A stretch of 19,578 nucleotides of DNA from a virus, in IMG/VR virus record IMGVR_UViG_3300047620_000017, one strand, 5' to 3'. This document shows, one piece after another, positions 1 through 19,270 of this stretch (its first letter is position 1; every line of letters begins with the position of its first letter). The translations under genes and the position numbers were made by a program. The notes beneath the pieces were generated by a model. It worked only from the letters and a program-made list of their open reading frames with translations, was not told the origin of the DNA and did no database searches.

Positions 1-2
1 TG

Positions 3-185
3 ACGCTGATCGCGTGGGCGTGCGGGGTTGACGCTCATTGGCTGAGGACGGGAAAGGCCCCGTCACCAGATGATGACGGGGCCGGTGGGCTCCCGCGGCT
101 GGACTTGAACCAGCAACCGTTCGATTATGCGGATGCCCAGGTCACAGCCAGATCGAGGCTATCACTCGCACGCACGGCGGCATAA
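3..185 (+). CDS. 3' portion of the XRE repressor-like gene (continuation of 19271..19578 when the two repeat copies are merged); ends ...SLARTAA*
   Basis: Same frame as 19271..19578 under the 19451 offset. It reads ...TLIAWACGVDAHWLRTGKAPSPDDDGAGGLPRLDLNQQPFD YADAQVTARSRLSLARTAA, with TAA at 183-185, 8 nt before the int ATG. Confidence 0.6.
   Translation, partial: TLIAWACGVDAHWLRTGKAPSPDDDGAGGLPRLDLNQQPFDYADAQVTARSRLSLARTAA
53..83 (-). terminator. Hairpin (10-bp perfect stem GGCCCCGTCA/TGACGGGGCC, 8-nt loop) followed by TTT on the minus strand, just 3' of the tRNA-like segment; second copy at 19504..19534
   Basis: Stem arms 56-65 and 74-83 are exact reverse complements. On the minus strand TTTCC follows the hairpin. 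The U-tract is short, so this is a weak terminator call. Confidence 0.35.
90..127 (-). other. tRNA 3'-half-like segment (candidate att core), copy 1
   Basis: Minus strand reads T-AA / TCGAA / CGGTT / GCTGG-TTCAAGT-CCAGC / CGCGGGA / G. These are the anticodon-loop 3' side, anticodon-stem 3' strand, variable loop, T-arm with a TTCAAGT loop, 7-nt acceptor 3' strand and discriminator. No complementary 5' acceptor strand (TCCCGCG) or anticodon-stem 5' strand occurs in 128-170, so this is a fragment, not a gene. Confidence 0.6.
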
Positions 186-192
186 TTCCTCC

Positions 193-984
193 ATGAGTGC
201 TGATAACTGGACAGTGGCAGAGCGGGCCTATGTAGTGGCCCTGAGGGCAGGCGGACGGTCTGACGGCACGATCCGCCTCCATCGGCATTACCTGGACCAG
301 GCACGGCGGGTCATTGCGGACCCGTACCGCGCGAGCACAGGTGACCTACTGGAGGTCCTCGGGCGGCCAGGATGGGCCGCTGAGACAAGGAAGTCATGCC
401 GGAGCGTGCTCGCGTCGTTCTATCGGTGGGCGCACGGATCGGGACACATGGGCGCCGACCCGGCTGTAGGACTCCCCACGGTGCGCGTCCCGGCGGGACG
501 GCCCCGCCCGACACCCGAGACGGTGTATGCACGCGCGCTCGCGCTCGCGGATACCCGGGGACGGCTCATGCTGAGACTCGCGGCCCTGGTAGGTCTACGG
601 GCGTGCGAGATCGCCACCGTGCACACAGGGAACTTGGTCGAGGACCTGCTACGGGTCACCGGCAAGGGCGGCAAGGTCCGCGTAGTCCCGGTCCTGGACC
701 CTGAACTCACATCTGCGATCCGAAAGGCGGGCGGGTGGCTGTTCCCGGGCCGGATCGACGGTCACCTCTCGGCCGGATACGTCTCCCGACTGCTCGGAGA
801 GATGCTCCCGGACGGGTGGACCGGGCACACACTCCGACACCGGTTCGGGACACGGGCCTATGCGGGCACTCGTGACCTGCTGGCGGTGGGCGAGCTGATG
901 GGGCACACCCGTCCGGAGACCACCCGCCGGTACGTCGAGTTGCCGGGCGATGCCCTGCGCCTCGCGGCCGCTGCGGCCGCCTAA
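193..984 (+). CDS. int: Tyrosine recombinase / phage integrase (short XerC/D-like, 263 aa)
   Basis: Catalytic signature is visible: LVGLRACE (Arg), GKGGKVRVVP (Lys), HTLRHRF (H-x-x-R), GHTRPETTRRY (His...Tyr). Start set at ATG 193 (MSADNW...); the 127-192 extension in the ORF track translates as unconvincing sequence. C-terminus is ...ALRLAAAAAA. Confidence 0.9.
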   Translation: MSADNWTVAERAYVVALRAGGRSDGTIRLHRHYLDQARRVIADPYRASTGDLLEVLGRPGWAAETRKSCRSVLASFYRWAHGSGHMGADPAVGLPTVRVPAGRPRPTPETVYARALALADTRGRLMLRLAALVGLRACEIATVHTGNLVEDLLRVTGKGGKVRVVPVLDPELTSAIRKAGGWLFPGRIDGHLSAGYVSRLLGEMLPDGWTGHTLRHRFGTRAYAGTRDLLAVGELMGHTRPETTRRYVELPGDALRLAAAAAA

Positions 985-1184
985 GGGTGCTTTGCCTGCT
1001 CGGCTGCTCGGTCCAGAGCACGGGCCAGGACTGGCATAGCGTCCCGGACGATCTGCTGTGCTTCACGGTGAGCAGCCGGATATCGGCCGGCCTCGGTCCA
1101 CGCACGCACAACGGCGTCATCCGGGGCCACACGGTCGTAGACCCGTAGGCCAGCGTCAGTTACGGGCGTGCGTGGTGTCCTCAT
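981..1184 (-). CDS. Hypothetical protein, 67 aa (last gene of the minus-strand array)
   Basis: Internal ATG of ORF 981..1295, 10 nt after the upstream stop. Translation is protein-like (MRTPRTPVTDAGLRVYDRV...ARALDRAAEQAKHP). No SD and no recognised motif. Confidence 0.4.
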   Translation of the reverse strand: MRTPRTPVTDAGLRVYDRVAPDDAVVRAWTEAGRYPAAHREAQQIVRDAMPVLARALDRAAEQAKHP

Positions 1185-1194
1185 GGAGGCAATG

Positions 1195-1461
1195 CTACGT
1201 CCCGGTGTTGACGTTCGCATCGGCCAGGGGCAAGCCGACCAGGGCAGCCGCCAGCGCTCCCCAGAGTGCAGCCGCCGAGTCCTCCACCAGGCCATAGGCG
1301 GCGCACAGTGCGATCACGGCAAGTGCGACCCGGTAGACCCAGCGCCGTGCGGCCGGGGACGTGATGATCCGTCCGGCGCGCTCGATCGGATCGGCAGTCT
1401 CCGCACGGTGTGTGGGCTCGTCGTCGGTATCCGCCCGGTGTGCGGGCTGGTCGTCAGTCAT
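1195..1461 (-). CDS. Small membrane protein with two predicted TM helices (holin-like), 88 aa
   Basis: ATGA start/stop overlap with the upstream gene. Hydrophobic stretches WVYRVALAVIALCAAYGLV and AAALWGALAAALVGLPLA. Located in the lysis cassette. Confidence 0.65.
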   Translation of the reverse strand: MTDDQPAHRADTDDEPTHRAETADPIERAGRIITSPAARRWVYRVALAVIALCAAYGLVEDSAAALWGALAAALVGLPLADANVNTGT

Positions 1462-1826
1462 GGTGAGTCCCTTTCTGCTGGTGGTGATTCGAGTGAGCGG
1501 ATGCGCACGCGGAGGTCTTCGAGCTGCTGCGCGCCGTCCTGCTCGTGGGCGCGTAGGTCGCCACGGAGGTAGCGGATGTCCCGGCCCTGCTCCGAGACCA
1601 TGGCCTCGATCCGGGAAATACTGTCCTTCATGGATCCACCCGAGTTGTGCTGTACCTCGTGGGCAACGGTGGCCGCGTCCGCGCGAATCTTGCGCCACTC
1701 GGGACGTATTTTCACGACCACGGCGAGGACGGCACCCACGGTCACGCCGACGGCGGAGACCATGGCGACGGCGATCACGGCGAGTCCTCCGATGAGGGCC
1801 GCTACCTCGTCGGGCGTGTGCGGCAT
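1458..1826 (-). CDS. Membrane protein, N-terminal TM helix plus coiled-coil C-terminus (holin-like), 122 aa
   Basis: TGATG overlap with the endolysin stop. TM segment VAALIGGLAVIAVAMVSAVGVTVGAVLAVVV is followed by a charged helical region. It is the C-terminal part of the artefactual 486-aa ORF 1458..2918. Confidence 0.7.
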   Translation of the reverse strand: MPHTPDEVAALIGGLAVIAVAMVSAVGVTVGAVLAVVVKIRPEWRKIRADAATVAHEVQHNSGGSMKDSISRIEAMVSEQGRDIRYLRGDLRAHEQDGAQQLEDLRVRIRSLESPPAERDSP

Positions 1827-2716
1827 CAGCGAACCGGTTCCTCCCACGCGGCGCGCCACGTGTCGGGGCCGATCTTCCCGTCCACCTTCAGGCTGGCGAT
1901 CTTCTGGAGGTTCCGTGCCGCCTTCTCGGTGACGGGGCCGTAGCGTCCATCGGCAGCGATCGAGTACCCGCGCCTCTGCATCCGCCGCTGCCACCTGGCG
2001 AGGCCCTTGGAGTGCCAGCGGCCGCTCTTGTCCTGGTAGACGTCGCTCCCTGCGTGCGAGTTGGACGCACGGCCACTCACGGACTGGACCGGTCCGCCAA
2101 CGGGGCCGTAGTAGCACAGGTCCCCAGACTTGCGCGGGAGCGGGAATGCCGGCGCCTTGGTCGTGGGGACGGGCTTGGACGGCTTGGACGAGCCGCCGGG
2201 CCCGCGGTAGTGGAACCGGCCGGCACGCAGGAGGTTCATGACCGGCGTGCCGGGGCAGTCCGTGGACGCGTCCGGGGACTGCTGGTGACCACGCACATAG
2301 GTAGCGGTGCTGTACCGGTCCTTGAGAGCTGCGAGGACCCGGAGCACGCCGTCGATCATGGCCTGCGTGGGCACCTCCTTGTCTCCCACGAGCAGCAGGA
2401 TCGCGGCCGCCTCGTTGTTGGAGCTGCTGCCCCCGTTCGCCCCGGACTCGTGGAACAGACCGCGGAGCTCCCAGATTCGCCCGCGCCCGTCCACGGCGAC
2501 GTTGTAGGCGACATCGAGCCACCCACGCTGGTTGACGTGCATGTCCCGATATCCGCGGAGTCGGGCCGCGATCTGGGCATCGGACTCGCCCTGCAACTTG
2601 ACGTTGCCGGATCCGGGGTAATGCAGGTAAGCACCGCGCACGGTGTGGTCGAACGCGTGCGAGCGGGTCGTGGTGGTGGTCCACGCGGAGCGCAGGTGGT
2701 CGTAGATGCTGGACAT
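1826..2716 (-). CDS. Endolysin: N-acetylmuramoyl-L-alanine amidase (Amidase_2/PGRP-like) with C-terminal peptidoglycan-binding domain, 296 aa
   Basis: Amidase_2-like features: LHYPGSG, WLDVAYNVAVDGRGRIWELRG, HQQSPDASTDCPG. C-terminal PG_binding_1-like repeat: GRYGPVTEKAARNLQKIASLKVDGKIGPDTWRAAW. AAAGGA SD lies upstream of the ATG. Confidence 0.9.
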   Translation of the reverse strand: MSSIYDHLRSAWTTTTTRSHAFDHTVRGAYLHYPGSGNVKLQGESDAQIAARLRGYRDMHVNQRGWLDVAYNVAVDGRGRIWELRGLFHESGANGGSSSNNEAAAILLLVGDKEVPTQAMIDGVLRVLAALKDRYSTATYVRGHQQSPDASTDCPGTPVMNLLRAGRFHYRGPGGSSKPSKPVPTTKAPAFPLPRKSGDLCYYGPVGGPVQSVSGRASNSHAGSDVYQDKSGRWHSKGLARWQRRMQRRGYSIAADGRYGPVTEKAARNLQKIASLKVDGKIGPDTWRAAWEEPVR

Positions 2717-2727
2717 GGTGGGTCCTT

Positions 2728-2918
2728 TCAGTTGGTGGCCTGTGGCACGGTGAGCGCGTCGATGAGTTTGTCCTCGTCCCCGCCACCAGCCCGGAACGTC
2801 TTCGCCAGTTGTTCGATCTGGTCGGGGATCTGGGCGAGGTCGCGCGGCGTTCCAGTTCGGTGAGGACGTCCCGTCGATGCTGTGCGAGTTCGTCGTCAGA
2901 GAGAGATTTCAGGTCCAT
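2728..2918 (-). CDS. Small coiled-coil protein whose reading frame is interrupted (needs a -1 shift near 2841-2849); about 63 aa if joined
   Basis: ATG 2918 with AAAGGA SD gives MDLKSLSDDELAQHRRDVLTELERR. The convincing continuation, RDLAQIPDQIEQLAKTFRAGGGDEDKLIDALTVPQATN*, is in the -1 frame, has high GC3, and stops at 2728-2730 just before the endolysin SD. That frame has no start codon of its own. Confidence 0.5.
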
Positions 2919-2931
2919 TTCTCGGTTCCTT

Positions 2932-4707
2932 TCAGGCCGGGGTGCCGGGCAGCGTGGTCGGCCACGCCTGCTGTGTGGTCCAGGTCATGCGGCAGGTCAT
3001 GGCGGCGCCGGCCTCCATCGCGTAGCCGAGCAGCGTCCCCGTGTTGGACGCGTTGATCGTTTCGCCGAGGTTCGCGCGCGTCGTGTTGGGTCGGAACCAC
3101 GGGGCGCGCTCGACATGGAACGGACGGAACCCGGCTGGGATCCCGAACAAGGTCCCAGTGCCGGTGAGGGGCACCACGAGGTCCACGAGTTGCAGCGTCA
3201 CCTCATCCCCCCGGCGCGAGAGGATCACCTGCCCGGACGTGTACCTGTCGGCTGGGATCAGCGAGGTGATGTCCCGGTATCCGGTGTCGTAGTTCGCCGC
3301 CTCGGTCACGATCGAGGCCGGCACGGCAGCAGCGAGCCGGGCGTGCCCGGCAGTGGTGACGTGCGTGCCGTCCGAGTCGATCGCGGGATCGAGGGTGCCG
3401 TCCGCGAGGGACACGGCGCCGGCGAGGTCGATCACTCCATCGAACAGGCCGGATCCGGGCATCCACGCGTTCACAGAGGTGCGTACGTTGTCGTTGTCTG
3501 GTTTCGGGCTGCGCGGCGTGATCGTCGTGCCGTACAGGGTGCCGCCGATCCTCCGGCGTAGTTCGGCCACGGTCGAGGTGACCCGTTCCCGGAGTTCGGC
3601 CGCGGTGATGTTCCCTGCCCAGTCGTTCGACCCCATCGCGTACAGGACCACGTTCGGCGCGTTGATGCTCGACCCGTACAGCTCCCACTTCCGGTTCGCG
3701 GTCTCGGTCCACGACGAAGCGGAGTCCCCGGAGTGTGCCCAGTACGCCGGCACGGCACCGTTCGCGCGTGCCCACTGCCCGAGCCACGAGTCAATGACGG
3801 GACGGGTCGCGCCGACGCCAGCCGCGGTGGACGACCCGTAGGCGGCCACGACGGGCGTTGTGTTGGGGACCTCGACTTCAAGCCATGTCCACAGCTCGGG
3901 ATTGTTCGTGCGGGTCCCGTCGGACCACGCCGTGCCCATCGTCCGGGTCACGTCAGAGCCGGTCCACGTGTACTGCACGACTACCTCGGCGCCACGGAGC
4001 GCGAGCGGCACCGTGAGCCATCCCGACGTGTACGCCGTCGCACCGGACGGGAGAGTGACCCAGTCGGTGCCGTTGCCGTTGGTGGTGTGCCGGCCGATCC
4101 GCACGTTCGCAAGCGTTGCCGTGTCCCGGTCCGCGTTGATATATCGGGGGTTCCAGTTGCGGATATGCACCTGCAACCGAGTCACCGATGCCGGGAGGTA
4201 CTGAATAACCGAGATGGTGCCCGTTCCGCTGGTCGTGGCACCTCCGTAGCCGGTGGTCATGGCGAGCGGCGCGATCGTCATGCCGGCGGGGCCGGCGGTC
4301 TTGAGTTGTTGCACGGGGGCCCGTGTCCCGCCGATCTGTGTCCATCCGGACCATCCGCCGGACAAGCGAGCGTTGATCCAGAGGGTCGGCTTGAGGGAGC
4401 GGGATGCTGCCAGGGCCAGACCGCCGGAGGTTCCCCACCGGGACATGATCATCGTGCCCTGCGCGGTGAACGGCATGCCGAGGGCCTCGGCAGCGTCTCC
4501 GGACCACCACGTGTAAATGTTCGTGGGGAGGTTGTCGAAAACTGCGGAGGTGCCGAGGGGAACGGCGGTTTGGTCGAAACGGGCGTCTTCGATCCGTTCC
4601 CAGAGGACGCGGGCGTTCGCGCTGATCGCGTCGTCCCCGTCTTTGATGTAGTCCCCACCGATCGGGAGGTGGATCCCTGCGGCTTTCATTTCGGTATCGG
4701 TTGCCAT
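2932..4707 (-). CDS. Minor tail / receptor-binding protein with internal SGNH(GDSL-like) esterase module, 591 aa
   Basis: Start at internal ATG 4707 (MATDTEMKAAGIHLPIGGDYIKDGDDAISANARVLWERIE) with AAAGGA SD. SGNH blocks lie at about 3319-3855: VVAAYGSSTAAG, MGSNDW, DSDGTHVT. Position is downstream of the tape measure and first minor tail gene. Confidence 0.8.
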   Translation of the reverse strand: MATDTEMKAAGIHLPIGGDYIKDGDDAISANARVLWERIEDARFDQTAVPLGTSAVFDNLPTNIYTWWSGDAAEALGMPFTAQGTMIMSRWGTSGGLALAASRSLKPTLWINARLSGGWSGWTQIGGTRAPVQQLKTAGPAGMTIAPLAMTTGYGGATTSGTGTISVIQYLPASVTRLQVHIRNWNPRYINADRDTATLANVRIGRHTTNGNGTDWVTLPSGATAYTSGWLTVPLALRGAEVVVQYTWTGSDVTRTMGTAWSDGTRTNNPELWTWLEVEVPNTTPVVAAYGSSTAAGVGATRPVIDSWLGQWARANGAVPAYWAHSGDSASSWTETANRKWELYGSSINAPNVVLYAMGSNDWAGNITAAELRERVTSTVAELRRRIGGTLYGTTITPRSPKPDNDNVRTSVNAWMPGSGLFDGVIDLAGAVSLADGTLDPAIDSDGTHVTTAGHARLAAAVPASIVTEAANYDTGYRDITSLIPADRYTSGQVILSRRGDEVTLQLVDLVVPLTGTGTLFGIPAGFRPFHVERAPWFRPNTTRANLGETINASNTGTLLGYAMEAGAAMTCRMTWTTQQAWPTTLPGTPA

Positions 4708-4718
4708 TGGTGGTCCTT

Positions 4719-5957
4719 TCAGGCAGCGTTCCAGGTGCGGGACTCGGCGGACCACGCATAGGTGGCCGAGTCCCAAACACGGGCGGGGACGGTGGGCGAG
4801 ATGGATCCCACGACGTGATACGACGGAGCGAGCTCAAGGTTGAGGGTCCAGCCGGCGCCGGTGATGGTCTCGGTGATTCCCACGGCAAAGTGGATGCCTT
4901 GGAGTTGGTGGTGCCAGTCGCCGGACAGGTAGATCGGGGAGCCGGCCTCGAGGACGAGCAGGCGCGCGGCCTGGTCCCTGTCGTACTTCCGATCCGATGT
5001 GATCAGGTGCAGTAGGTCGATTTCCACGCTCGGCAGGTCGTATGCTGTTTCCCATTCCAGGGCCCGGAGGCGCGCGCCCTCGGCGCGTACCTGGTCTTCG
5101 TTGTTGAACCGGGCGTGCGTGAGGTCGTGGTCCACCACGACTGCTGTCGGATCGTCCACCTGTCCCCACGTCGCCGAGTTCGTCCCGTTCCCGCTGCCCC
5201 ATGTGAGCCGCTGGTTACGGGGGATGCCCTCGGCGGATTGCTGCCACTTGGCGGGGGCGAGGGCTTGCGATCGGATCACGGGTAGGGACGTGTCGAGGCC
5301 GTCCTGCGCGTCCTCCCAGCGTTGCGCGTGCGTGAGGATCTGCCGGCCGCCGGCGCGGGTCTCCCGCACCGTGAAGCCGAGGGCGCTGGTCCACTTCCCG
5401 ATATCGCTGTAGGACTGCGGATCCTGCACCTTGTGGACGGTGCCGTACTGGTCCGGGGTCCCCATGCGTGTCGGGTCACCGAGGCGAGGGAGCGCGTTGG
5501 ACGTGAGCAGCTCGGCGATCACGAGCGCGATGTTGGATCCCACCGGCGGAGTGACCGTCTTACGGACCCGGGCCAGCTGTGCCGTCCACGAGGCTGCGAG
5601 TAGCGTCGTGGTCTGCCTGGTCCCTCGATCGTCCACGGTCTGCCGGCCGATCCTCCCGGAGAACCGCGGTTGCACGGTCGCGGGATTCACGCCTACGAGG
5701 TCGGCCATGAGCTGCGCACCGGACGTGGTGAGGTTGACCTCACAATGGTTCCCGGCCTGCACGGCAGCGAACCCGGAGACACCGACCTCAAGCGTGGACG
5801 GGGCGACGCCGCCGGCCGGGGATCCGTCCCCGCGCTTGATCGTGATACCGGTGATCCCACCGTCACGGAGGTCGGTCCCCTGCTCGGTAGTGAACCGGAA
5901 CAGGGGTTGTGCAGGGTCGAGCTTGCGGTAGAGGCGTCCCGGGGTCCGACGTGCCAT
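4719..5957 (-). CDS. Minor tail protein (distal-tail-protein position), 412 aa
   Basis: TAATG overlap with the tape-measure stop. It directly follows the tape measure, as Dit-type proteins do. No catalytic motif recognised. Confidence 0.75.
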   Translation of the reverse strand: MARRTPGRLYRKLDPAQPLFRFTTEQGTDLRDGGITGITIKRGDGSPAGGVAPSTLEVGVSGFAAVQAGNHCEVNLTTSGAQLMADLVGVNPATVQPRFSGRIGRQTVDDRGTRQTTTLLAASWTAQLARVRKTVTPPVGSNIALVIAELLTSNALPRLGDPTRMGTPDQYGTVHKVQDPQSYSDIGKWTSALGFTVRETRAGGRQILTHAQRWEDAQDGLDTSLPVIRSQALAPAKWQQSAEGIPRNQRLTWGSGNGTNSATWGQVDDPTAVVVDHDLTHARFNNEDQVRAEGARLRALEWETAYDLPSVEIDLLHLITSDRKYDRDQAARLLVLEAGSPIYLSGDWHHQLQGIHFAVGITETITGAGWTLNLELAPSYHVVGSISPTVPARVWDSATYAWSAESRTWNAA

Positions 5958-8530
5958 TACGCCTCACCACCGGTCACGAGCAGGTGGCGATCGGAGAGCA
6001 GCCGCTCAATCTCACGGGCGAGGCCGATACGGTCACCGATGAACGCGCCGTCCACGTGCACGTGGACGTGCTGCTCCACGGAGCGCCCGGGAGTCGTGCC
6101 CGTGGTGCCCGTGACGCCCTGCAGGGGGATCCTCGGGGCCGAGGGGACCGAGACCAGATCAGCCATGGCGCGGGATGCTTCCCGGGTCATCGCGCCGACA
6201 CCGTTGATCAGTCCCTGCCCGGTCCACTTACCGACCCGGAACAGCACTTTAGACGGGGACGCAATGCCGAGCTTGGACTTGATCGCGTCCACGGCGCCGC
6301 CGGCGAGGGACGAGGCTTTGTTCTTGAGCGCGCTGCCCATGGATCCGATGCCGTTGATGAGTCCTTGGATCAGGTCCTTACCGGCTCCCACGAGCAGACT
6401 GCCCATGTTGGACAGGGCCGAGGTGATCTTCCCGGGGATCTGTCGGACCACACCGAGCAGCCGGCCCACGGCACCGGTGACGGTGGTGACGATCGCGGAC
6501 CACGCCGAGTTGAACAGGGATCGGGCCGTGGTCAGGACGTTCGTGATGATCGAGCGGACCGCGTTCATCGCGTTGGTGATCATGGTGCGGATGCCCGTTG
6601 CGGCTGCCGTGACGGCCTGCTGGGCATAGGCCCACGCGCCCGCAAAATCACCTTGGAGTAGCGCGAGAATGCCCTGCACGACATTTCGGCATACCGTCAG
6701 GACCATATTCACGAAAGTTGCGATCTGCTGGACCACATAGGAAACGACGGTCACAACATTCTGAATTGCCGGAATGAGTACGTCGAGCAGCATCGAGACG
6801 AGCGGGGCGATCGCCTGCGTGAACGCGACGATGTTCTGCACCACGGTCACGATTACCGGGATGAGCGAGGGCAGCACGTCGGCGACGAGCTGCACGATGA
6901 TCGGCGCAAGGCCGGCAACGAGCTGCTGCACGAGCGGGGCCACGGCCGCGACGAGCTGCACGAACAGGGGGGCGAGCTGCGTCACGAGGTCCACGAGCGG
7001 GGGGAGCGCGGTGGTCACGATCTGCAGCAGGACCGGCGCGAGCTGCGAGAGCAGGGCACTGCCGAACTGCACGACGGCTTCGACCACGGGCATGAGGACC
7101 GGGAGTAGCTGCGTGAACGCCCCGAGGACGAGGGGCAGGATCTGCTGTGCGAGGCTGGCGAGCGGTGGCAGCAGGGTCTGTACGGCACCGAGCAGGGCGC
7201 CGCCGATCTGCTCCACCACGGGGGCGAGGGCAGCGGCGAGCGTGGTCATGATCGGCGCGAGGGTCGCGAGCAGCTCCGCGGCGATCGGGAGGACGGCCTG
7301 CACGAGGGTGCCGAACAGTCCGAGCAGCTCACCGAGTAGCGGGGCGAGGACCTCGAGCGTGGGAGCGAACGCCACGAGGGCGTCCGAGATGTCAGAGAAC
7401 GCGATCTGCAGGCCACCGGCGACGGCCGGGGACGCGAGGACCCCGGCGAGGGTCTCGAGCAGGGTGCCGATCGCGAGGGAGGCGTCATCGAACACCGAGG
7501 CGATCACCGGGGCGAGCGCGGCGAGCATGCCACCGATCGCGGACATAGCCGGGGCCAGGTTGTCCATGGCCTTCCCGGCGCCGGCGAACAGGGTCCGTAG
7601 CAGGTCCTGCCCCATCGGCCCGCTGATCGCCGCATTGATGGACTCGAGGCCGGAGGCGAGGGAACCGAGGGTTGCACCTCCAACGGACATCGCGGCCTTG
7701 CCGATTCCGCCGATGATCCCGCCGAGGTCACCGAGGATCGAACCGAGCAGATGCAGCCCCTGGATCCCGGTGTCGATCCAGTCGAACATGGCACCGGAGT
7801 CGATCGAGGCCTGCACCCACGAGTCGAACCGGCCCGTAATGTCCGTGAACCACTGCGCGAGCTGTGGGAGGTACGTTGCGCCGGCGCCGGCGAGGCCGAG
7901 CAGTCCAGAGGTGAGGGACTCCATGCCGGCCGTAGCGAGTCCGATGCTGTCGGAGGTCGCGGCGAGAATGTTGCCGATCACCTCGAGTCCGCCGGTGGAT
8001 CCGAGCACGCCAGCGATTCCGGCGAACATCCCGCCGAGTTGAGAACTGATCGCAGTAAGGCCGGTGCCGAGGGTCGGCAGGAGGTTGTCCACGAGGGAGC
8101 GGATCGGCTGCTCGGCGCGCTCCCAGAACGCGGCCGATACGGAGTCCTGCAGGGCCGTGAACTTGGGGCCGAGATCCGCGAGGACGGTGCCGGCGTCCTT
8201 GAGGGCGAGGACGAGGGCCACCACGCCGACTGCCATGCCGGCGAGGATCCCTGGCAGGACGAGGGCCGCGGGAGCTATCGAGGCGAGGGAAACGGCGAGA
8301 GAAAACAGGTTGCCGGCGCCGGCCATGGCAGCGGCCGCGAGGGTCGCGATCGCGGACGCGATCACGGCGACCTTGGGCGCGGACTTGACGAGCGCGGGGA
8401 TCGCGGTTCGGGCGCGCTTCGCGGCCTTGTCGAGACCGGTTACGGCTGCGGCCGTGCGGGTCAGTGCACGCACACCACCGGAGCTGTCCCCGGTGACGCG
8501 TACCGACAGGATCGCCGTCTTACCGGCCAC
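5957..8530 (-). CDS. Tape measure protein, 857 aa
   Basis: Longest ORF. GTG start with GAAGGGGGA SD. Long Ala/Leu/Gly/Val-rich helical and hydrophobic segments. Located between the chaperone and the minor tail genes. Confidence 0.9.
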   Translation of the reverse strand: MAGKTAILSVRVTGDSSGGVRALTRTAAAVTGLDKAAKRARTAIPALVKSAPKVAVIASAIATLAAAAMAGAGNLFSLAVSLASIAPAALVLPGILAGMAVGVVALVLALKDAGTVLADLGPKFTALQDSVSAAFWERAEQPIRSLVDNLLPTLGTGLTAISSQLGGMFAGIAGVLGSTGGLEVIGNILAATSDSIGLATAGMESLTSGLLGLAGAGATYLPQLAQWFTDITGRFDSWVQASIDSGAMFDWIDTGIQGLHLLGSILGDLGGIIGGIGKAAMSVGGATLGSLASGLESINAAISGPMGQDLLRTLFAGAGKAMDNLAPAMSAIGGMLAALAPVIASVFDDASLAIGTLLETLAGVLASPAVAGGLQIAFSDISDALVAFAPTLEVLAPLLGELLGLFGTLVQAVLPIAAELLATLAPIMTTLAAALAPVVEQIGGALLGAVQTLLPPLASLAQQILPLVLGAFTQLLPVLMPVVEAVVQFGSALLSQLAPVLLQIVTTALPPLVDLVTQLAPLFVQLVAAVAPLVQQLVAGLAPIIVQLVADVLPSLIPVIVTVVQNIVAFTQAIAPLVSMLLDVLIPAIQNVVTVVSYVVQQIATFVNMVLTVCRNVVQGILALLQGDFAGAWAYAQQAVTAAATGIRTMITNAMNAVRSIITNVLTTARSLFNSAWSAIVTTVTGAVGRLLGVVRQIPGKITSALSNMGSLLVGAGKDLIQGLINGIGSMGSALKNKASSLAGGAVDAIKSKLGIASPSKVLFRVGKWTGQGLINGVGAMTREASRAMADLVSVPSAPRIPLQGVTGTTGTTPGRSVEQHVHVHVDGAFIGDRIGLAREIERLLSDRHLLVTGGEA

Positions 8531-8543
8531 GGTGTCCCCCTTC

Positions 8544-8663
8544 CTATTCCTCGTCTTGCTCTGCGATCAGCTCGAGCGCTGTGGTGATGACTGCGGGGTC
8601 CTCGTCCACCCATGTGCTCACCGGGATTCCGGTACGGAGCGCGAGGGCGACGATGGAACGCAT
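8544..8663 (-). CDS. 39-aa ORF in the -1 frame relative to the tail assembly chaperone (gpT-like extension or separately coupled small gene)
   Basis: MRSIVALALRTGIPVSTWVDEDPAVITTALELIAEQDEE. Its ATG shares the A of the chaperone TGA (TGATG). The frame is also open further upstream, but that part translates as Arg/Gly-rich junk. Confidence 0.5.
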   Translation of the reverse strand: MRSIVALALRTGIPVSTWVDEDPAVITTALELIAEQDEE

Positions 8664-8962
8664 CAGCTCACCGGGTCCGTAGGGTCCTGCTCGGACGGCA
8701 CCTCCGTCTCGGTCTCGTCCTCGTGCTCGGCGACCCACGAGGCGTCCGTGGTCGAGAACTCGTCCCACGTCCCCGCGTACTGCCCGGTCCGGTGCAGGGA
8801 GTGCCACACCATGAATGTCTGTGCGAGCAGCTCGTCATCGGCTGCCCATCCGCGGGCTCGTGCGGTCTTGGACCACTGGATCTGGTCGGGAATGCCGAGC
8901 TGTGCCTGCAGCTCGTCCCCGTTCATCATCAGAACGTCCACCTTGGGTGCCTTGATCGTCAT
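8663..8962 (-). CDS. Tail assembly chaperone (gpG-like), 99 aa
   Basis: ATGA overlap with the upstream gene, very acidic C-terminus (EHEDETETEVPSEQDPTDPVS), and position immediately before the tape measure. Confidence 0.65.
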   Translation of the reverse strand: MTIKAPKVDVLMMNGDELQAQLGIPDQIQWSKTARARGWAADDELLAQTFMVWHSLHRTGQYAGTWDEFSTTDASWVAEHEDETETEVPSEQDPTDPVS

Positions 8963-9366
8963 CTCTTCCCCTTCACCTTTCGGATTGCTTCCAGTAGTTC
9001 TTTTTCGTAGATCGGGACCCACGTCGGCTCCGTTACCTGTGCGGCGCGGGTCATGAACGGATTGCCGCGGATCGGTCCGCCGGCCCATCCCTGGGCGGGG
9101 TTGGGTCGCGTGAGCCAGCCCCAATGGATCGGGCCGGCGTACGGGACGCGCTTCCGGCCGGCACGGATGATTCCGGCCTTTGCGGTAGCTCCCACGCGGA
9201 CCGAGGCGGCGAGGCGTCCAGTCCGCTTGGGAGCCATGGCCGCGGCCACGGGGGCCACGGTGGAGGCTGCGTGGCGGTTCGCGGCCTTGAGGTCGGATAG
9301 GTCGGATCCGGCGCGCTTGAGCGTCGCGCGGAGGCGTCGCGCACCGTCGATCCGAACCCCGGCCAC
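8959..9366 (-). CDS. HK97 gp10-family head-tail joining protein, 135 aa
   Basis: Pattern typical of the gp10 family: VRIDGARRLRATLKRAG...VAPVAAAMAPKRTGRLAASVRV...VPYAGPIHWG. GTG start 3 nt after the upstream stop. Confidence 0.75.
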   Translation of the reverse strand: MAGVRIDGARRLRATLKRAGSDLSDLKAANRHAASTVAPVAAAMAPKRTGRLAASVRVGATAKAGIIRAGRKRVPYAGPIHWGWLTRPNPAQGWAGGPIRGNPFMTRAAQVTEPTWVPIYEKELLEAIRKVKGKR

Positions 9367-9369
9367 GGA

Positions 9370-9795
9370 TCAGCCCTCGGGAGCTGCGGCGTAGTCCGCC
9401 GTGATCACTGGACGGCCGACCACGGGCAGCTCGAGCTCGGAGGTGTTGCGCTTCTTGACCTCCCCGCCGAGCGAGCCGGCTCGGATCACCACACGGCCCT
9501 TGGCCTGCAGCTTTCCGGCCTTGTCGGGCACGAACGTGAACGGGAGTTCCTCCCCGGAGTTGTCATAGAGCCACAGGTCGAGGGACTCGGCCGTGTAGTC
9601 CTGGTACTTGGTGAACGTGAGGGTCCACGTTTCGGTCTCGTCGCCGGGCACCTCGTCACCGGACAGGAGGCTGATCGGGTCGTCGGAGTCGAACTCGGGG
9701 GCGAGGGTGGCCTCGGAGACGGCCACGCCGAACTCCTTCGCGTCTGCTGCTTCGCCGAACGTGAGCAGGCCGGGGCCGAGCTTGGACAGTGCCAT
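9370..9795 (-). CDS. Putative major tail (tube) protein, 141 aa
   Basis: Good SD (AGGGAG), acidic beta-rich sequence (LTFGEAADAKEFGVAVSEATLAPEF...), and suitable size and position. No diagnostic motif, so the function is tentative. Confidence 0.5.
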   Translation of the reverse strand: MALSKLGPGLLTFGEAADAKEFGVAVSEATLAPEFDSDDPISLLSGDEVPGDETETWTLTFTKYQDYTAESLDLWLYDNSGEELPFTFVPDKAGKLQAKGRVVIRAGSLGGEVKKRNTSELELPVVGRPVITADYAAAPEG

Positions 9796-9801
9796 GGGTA
9801 A

Positions 9802-10179
9802 TCACTCCCTGGTGGTGGTGGTGTCGAGGGTGAGGACGAGGCAGGGCCACGGGTCCCCGTGTGCCGGTTGCCATGTGGTGACGCGCGAGGTGTCGAGCGC
9901 CAGGGGCTCCACGAGCTGCTCGGCCAGAGCGTCCAGCTCGGGCCATGCGGTCAGCGGATCGGTGTCGGTCGAGATCACGAGGACCTCGAACGCGTGGACG
10001 GCGACGTGATAGGTCTCCCACGTGGTCGTGGGCGGACCGGCGAGGACCACGGGACGGCCGGCGCCGAGCGCGGCACCGGCCTCGGCCGGGTCCAGGGTGG
10101 TGAGCGCGTCGATCTGCACGGCCTCGAGAGCGCGTCCCACGTCCTCGATTACCTGCTGCGCGGCCTGATACCCGGTCAT
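9802..10179 (-). CDS. Head-tail connector / tail terminator-like protein, 125 aa
   Basis: ATGA overlap with the adaptor gene. Start at internal ATG 10179 (MTGYQAAQQ...). Function inferred only from position and size. Confidence 0.5.
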   Translation of the reverse strand: MTGYQAAQQVIEDVGRALEAVQIDALTTLDPAEAGAALGAGRPVVLAGPPTTTWETYHVAVHAFEVLVISTDTDPLTAWPELDALAEQLVEPLALDTSRVTTWQPAHGDPWPCLVLTLDTTTTRE

Positions 10180-10502
10180 GCGATCACCGGGCCGAGCCAT
10201 GGGGCGAGGACGGCACGGGCCGAGCGACTCGGGTCAAGCCCGACCCGCACCGTTTCCAGGGCACCCTCGGACTCGTACGTGGCGACCCCGTTACGGGCCT
10301 GCTGTCGCCAGTACAGGTCCGCGCCGGCCTCGACCATGGCGCGCTCGAGGATGGACTTCGGGACCTCACGCTGCCCGACGATCTGCGTCACGAGGTCGAT
10401 CGCCTCGGTCGCACAGCTCTTCAGGTACGTCTCACGGTCGGCGCCGGCGCGGGTCGCGCCGACGTGTTGCGCGAGCCGCGTCGCGAGGGTCGCGGGATCC
10501 AT
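10176..10502 (-). CDS. Head-tail adaptor (gp6-like connector), 108 aa
   Basis: Directly downstream of the capsid gene. Helical sequence typical of gp6-like adaptors (TLATRLAQHVG...YLKSCATEAIDLVTQIVG...ADLYWRQQARNG). Confidence 0.7.
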   Translation of the reverse strand: MDPATLATRLAQHVGATRAGADRETYLKSCATEAIDLVTQIVGQREVPKSILERAMVEAGADLYWRQQARNGVATYESEGALETVRVGLDPSRSARAVLAPWLGPVIA

Positions 10503-10505
10503 GGA

Positions 10506-12179
10506 TCAGTCCTCGGGCGGGGTGGTGGTGCCGGTGAAGGACACCGGGAGCAGCGCGCCGGGGTGCGGGGCGATGTGCGCGATGTACCCGTAGCAGGCGT
10601 AATCGCGGGACAGGTTGAGCACGCCGTCGGCCTGCAGCCAGAACGGGGCACCGGGCGACTCGAGGGTCTCGATCGCCACCGGGTCGTAGAACAGAGCGGT
10701 ACCGGCAGCGGCGCCGTTGAGGACGGCCACGGGGATACGGAGCAGCTCACCGGACAGGCCGGGCAGGTTCGCGGTGCCGACCACGTTCACGCCGGTGGAG
10801 GACCCGGAGACGGTGAGCAGGGGCCGGCCGTCCGTGCCGGCCTCGGACGCCAGCCGCTTGAAAACATCGGCGGACACGGCGAGGGCCTGCAGGTCGTATC
10901 CGCGATCGTCGAGCAGCCCGGCGGAGTCCACGGCGGAGTCGATCCAGTCGAACGCGCCGAACGCGGCCGGTACCTCCACGTAGTCGGTGCCGGCGGTCCC
11001 GGCGAGCTTCGTCGCGGCCTGAGCCACGATGTAGGCCTTGGTTGCGGCCTCGGTCTGCCGGGCGTACTGCAGGGCGAACGCTTCGAACATGGTGGTCAGT
11101 GCCCATGCCTCGGACCGGTCGATCACCTGTCGGGCGACGGTCTCGGCACCACCGAACGTCCGCACGGGGGACGAGGCAGCCGTGACGGTGAACCCTGCAC
11201 CCTTCGCGAGCTCTTCGAGCTGCTCCTCCTGCTCGGCCACGGTCGCCGTCGCGGTGGTCTTGATGTAGTCGACCGTCATCCCCTTGCGCGGCAGGCTGCG
11301 CGTGTTGAACCGGGAGAGCCACCGGCGACGCTCGGTGACCTTCTTGGACAGGTCACCGATGAAGCCGGGCGTGTTCACGAGGTGCGAGGGGATGTCCGAC
11401 GTGGTGATGTCACGGTGCAGCAGCATCGCGACCTCGTGCCGGGGATCGCCCTCGGAGGTGATCGCCTGCACGTAGTCGCCGATCGTGGCGAACTGCTCGG
11501 CTCGGGCCGCGAGCATGTCGGCCGGCGTCGGGTCACCGGCGGACGCGACGCGACGGGTCACGTCCTCGATCGCGGCGCGGACCTCGGTCATGGTCTCGTC
11601 GTGCTCGGCACGGGTCACGAGGTCCTCGGTTGCGGTGGGCATGGTGTCCTCCTGGTGGGAGCGGTGGTGGTCGGTGGATCGGACGGACGCGATCTGAGCG
11701 CCCGCATACGCTGGGAACGGGACGAGGGAGTACTCCCGGACCTGTACGGACTCGTGGACGATCAGGGGACGCTCGTCGCCCTCGTCGTGTTCCTCGCGCC
11801 ACTTCACGGGCACGAACCCCACGGACAGGCCACGGATCACGCCGTCCTGGGCGAGCGTGTGCGCCTCGTCCGCGGTGGAGGTGCGGGAGAGCGTGAGGGT
11901 GACCTCTCGGCCGGCGTCGATGTCCTTGGATGCCGTGACGCGACCGATCGGGTCGATGTGCCGGTAGTACGCGAGAGCTGCCGAGTCATCGGTGATCGCG
12001 CCCGGCTCGAACCGCTCCCGGAACCACGGGGTTTCGTACTCCTCCCCGTAGGGGACGCCGAGACCGGTCACGGTTCGGGCGCCGTCCTCCCTGGTCTCGG
12101 CGCGGAGCTGCATGCCGGTGAAGTCCCGGACGGCCAGACCGTCCGGCCCGGTGAGCTGCTCGGGCAGGGTCGCGGTCAT
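10506..12179 (-). CDS. Fused prohead protease (HK97/S78-like) - scaffold-like linker - HK97-fold major capsid protein, 557 aa
   Basis: ATGA overlap with the portal stop. The N-terminal ~175 aa carry protease motifs (YYRHIDPIGRV, GVIRGLSVGF, EYSLVPFPAYAGAQI). A helical linker follows, then a capsid-like region (NTPGFIGDL...GMTVDYIK...TFGGAETVARQVIDRSE). It is one uninterrupted frame. Confidence 0.88.
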   Translation of the reverse strand: MTATLPEQLTGPDGLAVRDFTGMQLRAETREDGARTVTGLGVPYGEEYETPWFRERFEPGAITDDSAALAYYRHIDPIGRVTASKDIDAGREVTLTLSRTSTADEAHTLAQDGVIRGLSVGFVPVKWREEHDEGDERPLIVHESVQVREYSLVPFPAYAGAQIASVRSTDHHRSHQEDTMPTATEDLVTRAEHDETMTEVRAAIEDVTRRVASAGDPTPADMLAARAEQFATIGDYVQAITSEGDPRHEVAMLLHRDITTSDIPSHLVNTPGFIGDLSKKVTERRRWLSRFNTRSLPRKGMTVDYIKTTATATVAEQEEQLEELAKGAGFTVTAASSPVRTFGGAETVARQVIDRSEAWALTTMFEAFALQYARQTEAATKAYIVAQAATKLAGTAGTDYVEVPAAFGAFDWIDSAVDSAGLLDDRGYDLQALAVSADVFKRLASEAGTDGRPLLTVSGSSTGVNVVGTANLPGLSGELLRIPVAVLNGAAAGTALFYDPVAIETLESPGAPFWLQADGVLNLSRDYACYGYIAHIAPHPGALLPVSFTGTTTPPED

Positions 12180-13360: not shown

Positions 13361-13429
13361 GCCGGCACACTGCGCCCGGCGGGGTCTCCCCGGCCAGGGT
13401 GCCGGGGCAGGGTGTGACTGTGGGTGACG

Positions 13430-15577: not shown

Positions 15578-15924
15578 CCGCTCTCACTGTTTTTTTCTGA
15601 GCGCCCGGGGGAGGGAAAAACATGGGGCGCGGGGTGTTCTGGCGTTCGCGGCGCGAAAAAACCATCTCCATTCACGAGCGCGACTCGACCGTGACGCTGC
15701 CCGTGGTGACCGAAGTTGCAGTTAGGGTGCGCGAGACCGAGATTGTCGTAACCAGTCACTGATCCTCCTTGCTTTCTTCCTCGCTTGTGCTCGATCGTCG
15801 CAATGCGAATGCTCGCGATCCGTGTTCCGCACACGCAACAGATCAGTCCGTCGCGAGCCAGCAGCACTTGCTTGATTGACTGCCGTTTCTTGTACGGAAT
15901 GCGGTTCCACGAGTTGCGACTCAC
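15574..15924 (-). CDS. HNH endonuclease, 116 aa
   Basis: CCVCG...ATIEHKRGRKQGG...NLGLAHPNCN matches the HNH beta-beta-alpha metal motif. GTGA overlap upstream. Lies immediately before the terminase, as in HNH-dependent cos phages. The last ~35 codons have low GC3. Confidence 0.85.
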   Translation of the reverse strand: MSRNSWNRIPYKKRQSIKQVLLARDGLICCVCGTRIASIRIATIEHKRGRKQGGSVTGYDNLGLAHPNCNFGHHGQRHGRVALVNGDGFFAPRTPEHPAPHVFPSPGRSEKNSESG

Positions 15925-17159: not shown

Positions 17160-17365
17160 CGCGTTTCCCTTCTTGTCATCGGTGAGGCTGTGGATTCATC
17201 GGATGGTTGAGTGCTGCCCTCCCGCACCACGCGGCCTGCTGCTGCGGGTCGGCCGGTCCGGACTGCGTGGGAGCGTCTGGTAGGTGTGAGAGGGGATCCT
17301 GCTGTTCAGTTGTGGGGGACGTTCCAGGGCTGCCCCTGCGGGGCTGTCGGACCCGCTACGCGGGA

Positions 17366-19169: not shown

Positions 19170-19176
19170 GTGGGCA

Positions 19177-19264: not shown

Positions 19265-19270
19265 GAACAC

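What the first reader, a model, noticed from the sequence alone, without database searches (positions are those of the whole stretch)
1..984. Integration-dependent immunity architecture: att core inside the repressor-like gene, next to int, both with Ala-rich C-terminal tails
Seen in sequence: the tRNA 3'-half mimic (90-127 = 19541-19578) lies within codons ~91-103 of the XRE repressor-like ORF (19271..). Once the repeats are merged, that ORF continues for only 19 more codons (YADAQVTARSRLSLARTAA*), and int starts 8 nt later. Int ends ...ALRLAAAAAA*. Site-specific recombination in the core would therefore swap the repressor C-terminus. The excised/viral form carries an ...AA tail; the integrated form ends in host sequence. 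The next codon after 19578 starts TA-, so a flanking A or G gives an immediate stop. Established knowledge: this is the arrangement described for mycobacteriophages such as BPs, Brujita and Charlie (Broussard et al. 2013, Mol Cell). There attP sits within the repressor gene, the viral repressor and Int carry ssrA-like degradation tags, and only the integration-truncated repressor is stable. Inference: the same logic operates here in a much smaller, unrelated-looking genome.
Basis: partly seen in the sequence, partly recalled or inferred. Interest (0 to 1): 0.85.

Follow-up and report, generated by a model that had tools for sequence, protein, structure and literature searches.

The report
Phage repressor gene split by integration
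This small temperate phage of a Brachybacterium-like bacterium keeps its integration site inside its own repressor gene, so inserting into a host tRNA-Asn gene shortens the repressor from 121 to 102 residues; this is a clear natural example of the already known "integration-dependent immunity" switch, not a new kind of system.

Summary
The window is a circular 19,451-bp phage genome with a 127-nt assembly overlap. An XRE repressor ORF (121 aa, ends ...ARTAA) crosses the overlap and contains the reverse complement of a tRNA 3' half. A 263-aa tyrosine integrase (ends ...AAAAAA) starts 8 nt after the repressor stop.

The same phage, 100% identical, is integrated in a 435-kb host contig. The common core is window 88-127. 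It is the 3' part of tRNA-Asn(GTT). Two host-type bases in the int-side core copy place the crossover in 115-127, inside repressor codons 99-103. The host base after the core makes TAA, so the prophage repressor is 102 aa (...NQQPFD*) and lacks the 19-aa tail.

Repressor and Int are homologues of mycobacteriophage BPs gp33 (36% identity) and gp32 (46%). Gene order matches Gordonia phage SallySpecial. Terminal -AA is conserved in 12 of 14 viral-form repressors compared and in 82 of 120 Int homologues.

Tag-dependent proteolysis is inferred, not tested. Small-genome actinophages with this system are already published, so this is a new member of a known kind: new host family, new attB.

A conserved hairpin inside the repressor linker, probably a replacement tRNA terminator, is a side finding.

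The parts
19271..19578 (+). Repressor gene, 5' part: codons 1-102 plus the first 2 nt of codon 103. With the host's next base (A) this is the complete 102-aa prophage repressor, ...LNQQPFD*.
   Evidence: Translation. HTH_3 at aa 21-75, phrog_2328 E=9e-28. Prophage junction L113 gives a 102-aa product.
1..127 (.). Assembly overlap, identical to 19452-19578. It is not a biological repeat. Its right edge (127|128) is the point where the attP form and the prophage junction diverge.
   Evidence: Exact 127-nt terminal repeat. Host contigs L112 and L115 break at related positions.
88..127 (-). 40-bp common core (a second copy is at 19539-19578). On the minus strand it is the 3' part of tRNA-Asn(GTT), running from the anticodon-loop bases TAA to C75. 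It encodes repressor residues about 90-103.
   Evidence: In the lysogen contig, homology to the window stops at 127 on the rep side (L113) and starts at 88 on the int side (L110). ARAGORN calls tRNA-Asn at L113 9557-9631.
115..127 (.). Interval that must contain the strand exchange. In tRNA terms it covers the variable loop, the anticodon-stem 3' strand and the first loop bases. In the repressor it covers codons about 99-103.
   Evidence: The int-side core copy carries host alleles at 98 (A) and 114 (T). The rep-side copy carries the phage alleles (G, C).
128..185 (+). Tail present only in the viral form of the repressor: the last base of Y103, then ADAQVTARSRLSLARTAA and stop TAA. It ends in an ssrA-like -AA. 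In the prophage it lies about 19.4 kb from the rest of the gene.
   Evidence: 12 of the 14 viral-form repressors compared (the window's included) end -AA, although their tails cannot be aligned.
193..984 (+). Tyrosine integrase, 263 aa, with no arm-binding domain detected. It ends ...ALRLAAAAAA. No Shine-Dalgarno sequence precedes it; it starts 7 nt after the rep stop.
   Evidence: PF00589 E=2e-13, phrog_1. 46% identity to BPs gp32 and 47% to SallySpecial Int. C-terminal ends of homologues.
56..83 (-). GC-rich hairpin: stem 56-67/72-83, loop 68-71. On the tRNA-sense strand it lies just 3' of the tRNA end and is followed by TTT. It encodes the conserved repressor linker APSPDDDGA. It is probably a replacement terminator for the tRNA in the lysogen.
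   Evidence: Minus-strand RNA fold -33.3 kcal/mol, z -4.0, 0 of 200 shuffles as stable; plus strand z -2.5. A hairpin is kept at this place in most relatives with different stem sequences. The host's native tRNA terminator is a similar hairpin.
18963..19169 (-). Divergently transcribed 68-aa HTH_17 gene, in the position of cro.
   Evidence: PF12728 E=2e-6. The same position is occupied in all relatives. No detectable similarity to BPs Cro.
19155..19269 (.). Regulatory region. It holds three copies of an operator-like motif TCAAGGTTGAnCA at 19155-19168, 19200-19213 (reverse complement) and 19257-19269. A PR-like promoter lies on the minus strand: TTGACC at 19206-19201, 18-nt spacer, TAGAGT ending at 19177.
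   Evidence: Repeats. 3 of the 5 genome-wide GGTTGAHC matches fall here. Promoter scan. The same three motif positions occur in relative L063.

Best explanation
The window is the excised, circular form of a 19.45-kb temperate siphovirus-like phage of a Brachybacterium-like bacterium (family Dermabacteraceae). It carries an integration-dependent immunity cassette.

Shown:
- rep and int lie in tandem on one strand.
- The 40-bp attP core (88-127) lies inside rep.
- Int-type recombination with the 3' part of the host tRNA-Asn(GTT) gene has inserted the phage in natural populations.
- The crossover falls in 115-127.
- The prophage repressor ends at a TAA formed by the first host base after the core. 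It is 102 aa instead of 121 aa and has lost the tail ending -AA.
- The functional tRNA is rebuilt from the host 5' half and a phage-derived T arm. A compensatory G-C pair replaces the host's A-U pair.

Inferred from homology to BPs gp33 and gp32 and from family-wide conservation:
- The -AA ends of the viral repressor and of Int are ssrA-like degrons, read by ClpXP-type proteases. The full-length repressor would then not accumulate during infection.
- Whether an infection becomes a lysogen would depend on how much unstable Int survives to catalyse integration.
- Only the truncated, stable repressor would shut off the divergent early promoter. It would do so through the three TCAAGGTTGA-type sites.
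- int would be cut off from the rep promoter in the prophage. Translational coupling of int to full-length rep is likely, because 7 nt separate them and no Shine-Dalgarno sequence is present.
For: - Circle and ORFs.
- Phage identity: tape-measure protein, protease-capsid fusion, large terminase, portal, holin and amidase.
- Integrated copy: JGI contig Ga0485925_00036 (435 kb) holds the phage at 100% identity. The rep-side junction is ...CCGTTCGATTA|ACAGTCGAATGCTCTGCCGATTGAGCTACGCGGGA. This gives a 102-aa repressor and overlaps a complete tRNA-Asn. The int-side junction starts at window 88 and has host alleles at 98 and 114. The prophage span is 19,491 bp, that is 19,451 + 40.
- Distribution: the 121-aa form is recorded only on contigs of 50 kb or less. 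The neighbouring HTH gene and Int are recorded on contigs of 0.2-1 Mb in 69 collection blocks.
- Independent relatives in the integrated state: L012 and L109 (tRNA-Asn...NQQPFD*), L057 (tRNA-Arg...PPTF*, TGA), L058 (tRNA-Lys...EPRTH*, TGA).
- Homology: BPs gp33 36% over 89 aa, E=1e-9. BPs gp32 46%, E=6e-49. SallySpecial repressor 47%, Int 47%, same gene order.
- Tails: 12 of the 14 viral-form repressors compared end -AA, one ends -VA and BPs gp33 ends -AS. All 8 neighbouring Ints end -AA. Of the 120 best Int homologues, 82 end AA, 16 VA and 9 AS.
- Definition of the system: PMC9262239, PMC4557955, PMC5559632.
Against: - No stability, immunity or recombination assay exists for this phage. The degron role of -TAA and -AAAAAA is untested.
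- The tails are not canonical -LAA.
- The Ala-rich end of Int partly belongs to a conserved C-terminal motif (DALRAAxxAAAA). Its conservation could therefore be structural.
- Alanine is common in a 68% G+C genome, and a third protein here, a tail protein, also ends -AA.
- An unoccupied attB was not recovered. The host alleles are inferred from the int-side core copy.
- Two HTH_17 (excisionase-like) proteins are encoded, so a directionality factor cannot be excluded.
- The divergent gene shows no similarity to BPs Cro.
Confidence: 0.82

Rival explanations
1. [quoted passage not shown] Both repressor forms are stable and active. Immunity does not depend on integration, and the -AA ends have no role in degradation.
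For: - The whole HTH domain (aa 21-75) is kept in both forms.
- Ala is 12.9% of residues, and an unrelated tail protein also ends -AA.
- The tails are not -LAA.
- No functional data exist for this phage.
Against: - Terminal -AA is kept in 12 of 14 viral-form repressors whose tails cannot otherwise be aligned. It is also kept in 82 of 120 Int homologues.
- One relative (L062) has changed TTAA to GAAA inside the tRNA-like stretch. This keeps the viral ORF open through to its -AA end.
- The proteins are homologues of the BPs cassette, where tag-dependent proteolysis was shown experimentally (PMC4557955).
Confidence: 0.12
2. The viral-only tail is conserved for a reason other than proteolysis. One option is a DNA-level constraint of the attP P' side, such as an Int-binding site. 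Another is a role of the longer protein in activating the rep promoter. In this reading, integration changes the repressor's function rather than its stability.
For: - A conserved CAGGTCA motif (peptide 'QV') lies 9-13 nt right of the core in five relatives.
- In BPs, stabilised gp33-136 modestly raised Prep activity (PMC4557955).
Against: The conserved feature shared by all tails is the very last two residues, not an internal motif. This fits a C-terminal degron. It does not explain why Int has the same kind of end.
Confidence: 0.05
3. The arrangement is an assembly artefact. The terminal repeat would join unrelated sequence, so the repressor ORF across the joint would not be real.
For: The ORF is only complete after the 127-nt overlap is merged.
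Against: The same joint is contiguous, at 100% identity, in independently assembled contigs from other samples and in a different rotation (L003, L004, L006-L011). The 121-aa protein is recorded on about 20 contigs.
Confidence: 0.01

Closest known systems
Integration-dependent immunity of mycobacteriophages BPs, Brujita and Charlie (clusters G, I, N, P; Broussard et al. 2013, as summarised in PMC9262239 and PMC4557955)
   Same: - rep is upstream of int on one strand, with the attP core inside rep.
- attB is a tRNA gene.
- The prophage repressor is truncated: 136 to 103 aa in BPs, 121 to 102 aa here.
- The stop codon is made by the first host base after the core: TGA in BPs, TAA here.
- attP/attB core mismatches keep the tRNA base-paired.
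- Int is small, and an HTH gene is transcribed divergently.
- The proteins are homologous: repressor 36% identity, Int 46%.
   Different: - The host is a Micrococcales bacterium (Dermabacteraceae), not Mycobacterium.
- attB is tRNA-Asn rather than tRNA-Arg.
- The genome is 19.5 kb against 41.9 kb.
- The tail is 19 aa against 33 aa.
- A strong conserved hairpin lies in the repressor linker; BPs lacks it.
- The divergent gene is an HTH_17 protein with no similarity to BPs Cro.
- Proteolysis is untested here.
Small-genome Gordonia phages with integration-dependent immunity: cluster CW (GMA5, GRU3, Jeanie, McGonagall; PMC5559632) and SallySpecial (Emperorvirus, 15.9 kb, MG812496)
   Same: - The genomes are 15-19 kb and siphovirus-like.
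- Gene order is the same: tail genes, int, rep, divergent HTH genes, protease-capsid fusion.
- The SallySpecial repressor is 47% identical and ends -SAA. Its Int is 47% identical and ends -WAA.
- The tRNA-like core and the hairpin sit at the same place in the repressor.
   Different: - There is no nucleotide-level similarity (megablast found nothing).
- The target tRNA and the host order differ.
- SallySpecial has 325 nt between rep and int, against 7 nt here.
- The lysis genes sit elsewhere.
Small Bifidobacterium prophages Bb423phi2 and 689b-1 (PMC6109161)
   Same: They are small actinobacterial prophages with int next to one att site and the repressor next to the other. The reconstructed viral repressor has 18 extra C-terminal residues with an ssrA-like tag.
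   Different: Their target is tRNA-Met. They are known only as prophages, so the viral form was reconstructed in silico. Here both forms are observed directly in metagenomes.

Membership tests
Integration-dependent immunity system (Broussard et al. 2013; PMC9262239) | The repressor gene lies immediately upstream of a tyrosine-integrase gene on the same strand (operon-like). | tested here: met
   rep is 19271..185 and int is 193-984, with a 7-nt gap. The same order is seen in 7 relatives.
Integration-dependent immunity system (Broussard et al. 2013; PMC9262239) | The attP common core and the crossover lie inside the repressor ORF. | tested here: met
   The core is 88-127, defined by the two junctions of the integrated copy. 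The crossover is confined to 115-127 by host alleles at 98 and 114. Both lie in codons 90-103 of 121.
Integration-dependent immunity system (Broussard et al. 2013; PMC9262239) | attB overlaps the 3' end of a host tRNA gene, and the tRNA is rebuilt on integration. | tested here: met
   ARAGORN calls a complete tRNA-Asn(GTT) at the rep-side junction (L113 9557-9631). The two differences in the T stem are compensatory.
Integration-dependent immunity system (Broussard et al. 2013; PMC9262239) | Integration yields a C-terminally truncated repressor that lacks the tail of the viral form. | tested here: met
   The viral form is 121 aa. The prophage form is 102 aa, with a TAA stop made by the first host base.
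Integration-dependent immunity system (Broussard et al. 2013; PMC9262239) | The viral repressor ends in an ssrA-like tag (-LAA or similar). | tested here: met
   This is sequence-level evidence only. The window repressor ends -RTAA. 12 of 14 viral-form family members end -AA.
Integration-dependent immunity system (Broussard et al. 2013; PMC9262239) | The integrase ends in an ssrA-like tag. | tested here: met
   This is sequence-level evidence only. The window Int ends -AAAAAA. 8 of 8 neighbouring Ints and 82 of 120 homologues end -AA, with 16 -VA and 9 -AS.
Integration-dependent immunity system (Broussard et al. 2013; PMC9262239) | The tags cause proteolysis of the viral repressor and of Int, and only the truncated repressor confers immunity. 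| not testable with these tools
   This needs protein-stability and immunity assays.
Integration-dependent immunity system (Broussard et al. 2013; PMC9262239) | The integrase is small and 'armless', with no arm-type DNA-binding domain. | tested here: met
   Int is 263 aa. Pfam finds only PF00589 (aa 119-249) and no arm-binding domain. Homologues are 260-283 aa.
Integration-dependent immunity system (Broussard et al. 2013; PMC9262239) | No recombination directionality factor is encoded. | tested here: inconclusive
   Two HTH_17 (excisionase-like fold) proteins are encoded: window 18963-19169, and an 87-aa one upstream of the HNH and terminase genes. Their roles are unknown.
Integration-dependent immunity system (Broussard et al. 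2013; PMC9262239) | A cro-like gene is transcribed divergently, across a short region with promoters and operators. | tested here: met
   This holds by arrangement: a 68-aa HTH gene, a 101-bp intergenic region, three operator-like repeats and a PR-like promoter. There is no sequence similarity to BPs Cro.
Integration-dependent immunity system (Broussard et al. 2013; PMC9262239) | The repressor and Int are homologous to characterised members. | tested here: met
   BPs gp33: 36% over 89 aa, E=1e-9. BPs gp32: 46%, E=6e-49. Annotated Gordonia immunity repressors: 47-48%.

The most novel reading that the evidence does not exclude
One stretch of the cassette (window 53-127) would carry three overlapping codes. 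It encodes the repressor linker and C-terminal end. It is the attP core. On the opposite strand it also supplies a transcription terminator (hairpin 56-83 plus a T run) for the rebuilt tRNA-Asn.

This terminator would replace the host's own one, which integration moves 19 kb away. It would also shield the prophage repressor gene and its promoter region from convergent read-through out of a strongly transcribed tRNA gene.

The conserved 'APSPDGDGA' protein motif of this repressor family would then be a by-product of RNA-structure selection. I found no description of this in the papers searched.
Probability: 0.45. Interest if true: 0.45.

Novelty: new member of a known kind. Interest (0 to 1): 0.3.

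Why it matters
- It extends integration-dependent immunity to phages of Dermabacteraceae (Micrococcales) and to a tRNA-Asn attB.
- Public metagenomes hold both states of one phage. attP, both prophage junctions, the crossover interval and both repressor forms can therefore be read directly rather than reconstructed.
- The prophage-form repressor overlaps a tRNA gene. The IMG gene calls leave it out, so it is missing from the protein collections. Surveys based on predicted proteins will under-count this system.
- The armless 263-aa Int and its 40-bp core could serve as a compact integration tool for Brachybacterium and related bacteria.
- The biology itself is already established, so the conceptual gain is small.

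Tried and rejected
- An actinomycete integrative conjugative element (size, G+C, tRNA target) was rejected. The element encodes a tape-measure protein, a capsid-protease fusion, portal, terminase, holin and amidase.
- My first guess, tRNA-Met (CAT read from the phage side), was wrong. That CAT lies outside the core. The host junction shows GTT, that is Asn.
- Exact 42-nt searches for the tRNA-Asn with the phage T arm found nothing in 185,579 species genomes or in JGI metagenome contigs. The later explanation is that the host's native T stem has A-U where the phage has G-C.
- A degenerate pattern found 43 tRNA-Asn genes and one more integrated relative (L109). It did not find the unoccupied attB, because the pattern still carried the phage allele.
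- A repressor-profile scan of genome contigs gave only distant XRE hits. The first alignment was too diverse to be searched at all.
- Megablast of the genome against 50,697 phage records found no match.
- Broussard et al. 2013 (PMC3557535) is not held in the library. I used PMC9262239 and PMC4557955 instead.
- MAFFT misaligned the hairpins, so I made no formal covariation count. The evidence is that each sequence folds on its own.
- The simple terminator scan does not flag the hairpin, because only 3 T follow it here.
- The idea that the window's ends are arbitrary was replaced. They sit 127 nt before the core edge, as do the ends of the host contigs L112 and L115. This is what a de Bruijn graph branch between attP and the prophage junction would produce. 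It is an inference.
Full report
**What the window is**

The first and last 127 nt are identical. The window is therefore a circular 19,451-bp genome with the k-mer overlap that assemblers leave on circular contigs. G+C is 68%.

It encodes a tape-measure protein, a protease-major-capsid fusion, portal, large terminase, holin, amidase and tail proteins. It is thus a small siphovirus-like phage, not an integrative plasmid. Megablast finds no related phage record.

At the protein level, gene order matches the 15.9-kb Gordonia phage SallySpecial (Emperorvirus). Its annotated immunity repressor is 47% identical and its Int is 47% identical.

**Checking the observation**

- Read across the merged repeat, the ORF from 19271 is 121 aa. 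It has an HTH_3 domain at aa 21-75 and matches phrog_2328 'transcriptional repressor' at E=9e-28. It ends ...LSLARTAA at TAA 183-185.
- The integrase ATG is at 193, 7 nt after the repressor stop. Int is 263 aa and ends ...ALRLAAAAAA. Pfam finds only the catalytic domain.
- Positions 90-127 fall in codons 91-103. They are the reverse complement of a tRNA T arm, acceptor 3' strand, variable loop and anticodon-stem 3' strand.

**The decisive evidence: the same phage in the integrated state**

The neighbouring 68-aa HTH protein and the C-terminal part of Int are recorded on hundreds of contigs. In 69 collection blocks the longest contig is 0.2-1 Mb. The 121-aa repressor is recorded only on contigs of 50 kb or less.

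The phage is present at 100% identity in JGI contig Ga0485925_00036 (435,359 bp).

- **Repressor side (L113).** Identity to the window stops exactly at position 127/19578. The sequence continues ACAGTCGAATGCTCTGCCGATTGAGCTACGCGGGA, the reverse complement of the 5' half of a tRNA. ARAGORN calls a complete tRNA-Asn(GTT) across the joint. The repressor reads ...CCG TTC GAT TAA, so the prophage form is 102 aa...LNQQPFD*.
- **Integrase side (L110).** Identity begins at window 88.
- **Span.** The two joints are 19,491 bp apart, which is 19,451 + 40. The common core is therefore window 88-127.
- **Crossover.** The int-side core copy differs from attP at 98 (A for G) and 114 (T for C). The rep-side copy has the phage bases. 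These two positions pair with each other in the T stem: host A-U, phage G-C. They are thus the host's own tRNA alleles. They place the strand exchange to the right of 114, in 115-127, which is repressor codons about 99-103.

The crossover is inside the ORF, and the two forms have different C-termini.

Host flanks are 68.4% G+C. Their pyruvate dehydrogenase E1 is 85% identical to that of Brachybacterium endophyticum and 73-76% to Dermabacter and Helcobacillus. The host is therefore a Brachybacterium-like member of Dermabacteraceae.

**Family context**

- The repressor is homologous to BPs gp33 (36% over 89 aa, E=1e-9). Int is homologous to BPs gp32 (46%, E=6e-49).
- In the alignment, all relatives carry a tRNA-derived peptide at the same place. 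It is LPRLDLNQQPFD for tRNA-Asn and RPEGFEPPTF for the tRNA used by BPs. A variable tail follows.
- Of the 14 viral-form repressors compared, 12 end -AA, one ends -VA and BPs gp33 ends -AS.
- All 8 neighbouring Ints end -AA. Of the 120 best Int homologues, 82 end AA, 16 VA and 9 AS.
- In this phage 3 of 28 proteins end -AA, against about 1.7% expected from composition.
- Other relatives caught in the integrated state end just as predicted: L012 and L109 at tRNA-Asn (...NQQPFD*, TAA), L057 at tRNA-Arg (...PPTF*, TGA) and L058 at tRNA-Lys (...EPRTH*, TGA).
- In L062 the tRNA similarity runs on through the anticodon loop, but TTAA has become GAAA. This keeps the viral ORF open.

**How it most likely works**

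Shown:
- the architecture;
- the site, the crossover interval and the two protein forms;
- rebuilding of the tRNA.

Inferred from homology to the tested BPs system (PMC4557955, PMC9262239) and from conservation:
- The -AA ends are ssrA-like degrons, so the full-length repressor and Int are unstable.
- Integration both requires surviving Int and creates the stable 102-aa repressor.
- That repressor acts on the divergent promoter region. The region holds three copies of TCAAGGTTGAnCA at 19155-19168, 19200-19213 and 19257-19269. The middle one overlaps the -35 hexamer of a PR-like promoter. The closest relative with a similar repressor has the same three sites.
- int has no Shine-Dalgarno sequence and starts 7-12 nt after the rep stop in five of the six cassettes examined. 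This suggests translational coupling, which integration would break.

**Comparison with what is known**

The system was defined in mycobacteriophages of clusters G, I, N and P.

- It has since been reported in about half of the Gordonia phages with tyrosine integrases for which an attP site could be identified (27 phages).
- These include the roughly 17-kb cluster CW phages (PMC5559632).
- It has also been reported in small Bifidobacterium prophages with an 18-aa tail (PMC6109161).
- The stop codon made by the first host base, core mismatches that preserve tRNA pairing, and the armless Int are all described for BPs (PMC9262239).

This window is therefore a new member of a known kind. What is new is the host family, the tRNA-Asn target and the direct observation of both states. 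It is not a new variant.

**Side finding**

A 12-bp GC-rich hairpin (56-83) lies on the tRNA-sense strand a few nt after the tRNA end and is followed by TTT.

- The minus-strand RNA fold is -33.3 kcal/mol, z -4.0, with 0 of 200 shuffles as stable. The plus strand gives z -2.5.
- It encodes the conserved linker APSPD(D/G)DGA.
- In most of the 16 relatives examined, a 10-14-bp hairpin sits at the same place. The inner stems differ but still pair: GTCACC/GGTGAC, GTCTCC/GGAGAC, GCCCGG/CCGGGC, GTTGGG/CCCAAC, ACCGGG/CCCGGT. BPs lacks a clear one.
- The host's native tRNA-Asn is followed by the same kind of hairpin plus a T-rich run.

The likeliest reading is a phage-supplied replacement terminator embedded antisense in the repressor gene. 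I found no paper that links this to integration-dependent immunity. MAFFT could not align the stems, so no formal covariation count was made.

**Limits**

- No stability or immunity data exist for this phage.
- The unoccupied attB was not recovered.
- The role of the two HTH_17 proteins is open; either could be a Cro analogue or an excisionase.
- The attP-type joint inside a 685-kb host contig (L111/L114) may be a tandem lysogen or an assembly path.

Noticed in passing
window 56-83 (minus strand); same place in L001, L012, L054, L055, L058, L060-L066, L109: A GC-rich hairpin sits just 3' of the tRNA end on the tRNA-sense strand. It is kept in most relatives with different but still pairing stem sequences. 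It encodes the conserved repressor linker APSPDGDGA. The host's native tRNA-Asn terminator is a similar hairpin. It is probably a replacement terminator carried inside the repressor ORF.
   Followed up: partly
window 1 and 19578; L112 (contig end at window 1); L115 (contig end at window 241): The window's ends lie exactly 127 nt before the right edge of the att core. Large host contigs from other samples break at the same or a nearby place. This is what a k=127 graph branch between the attP form and the prophage junction would give. It implies that excised and integrated forms coexist in those samples.
   Followed up: partly
L111/L114 = JGI 3300045227 Ga0485443_00020, contig positions 412011-433483: A 685-kb host contig holds more than 21.4 kb of uninterrupted phage sequence with an attP-type rep-int joint in the middle. 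It is either a tandem double lysogen or the assembler walking once around the circular form.
   Followed up: no
L113 9535-9900 (minus strand of the locus): The gene calls for this contig list no gene for the 102-aa prophage repressor, which overlaps the tRNA-Asn gene. The short form is accordingly absent from the protein collection, where only the 121-aa form is found. Surveys based on predicted proteins would miss prophage-form repressors of this system.
   Followed up: partly
window 98 and 114; L110 9576 and 9592: attP and attB cores differ at two positions that form one base pair of the tRNA T stem: phage G-C, host A-U. After integration the working tRNA-Asn carries the phage's T arm. It is followed by CCC rather than the host's encoded CCA.
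   Followed up: yes
window 137-143; L060, L061, L062, L066 at the equivalent place: A conserved CAGGTCA (peptide 'QV') lies 9-13 nt to the right of the core, inside tails that are otherwise unalignable. It could be an Int contact on the P' side or part of the degradation signal.
   Followed up: no
L062 2501-2860: In this relative the similarity to tRNA-Asn continues through the anticodon loop and stem, but TTAA is replaced by GAAA. This removes the in-frame stop and keeps the viral repressor open to its -HAA end.
   Followed up: partly
window 13430-15577 (minus strand): The 715-aa ORF matches a small-terminase family (phrog_15169) at aa 42-106 and large terminase at aa 237-704. It is either a fused TerS-TerL or an over-long ORF. 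Other gene calls give 690 aa.
   Followed up: no
L053 834-1400 (IMG/VR UViG 2751185668_000001; the proteins P0008 and P0012 are named Devriesea agamarum by NCBI): Two tandem repressor paralogues, up to 77% identical to the window's HTH domain, end shortly after the domain. They have no tRNA-like core, so they are probably remnants or a different arrangement.
   Followed up: no
L014 10001-10330 (Mycolicibacterium vanbaalenii): A related repressor (51% identity) also ends at GAT TAA, inside the reverse complement of a tRNA-Lys-like anticodon loop. The 3' half of that tRNA looks degenerate and ARAGORN does not call it. It may be a decayed junction.
   Followed up: no
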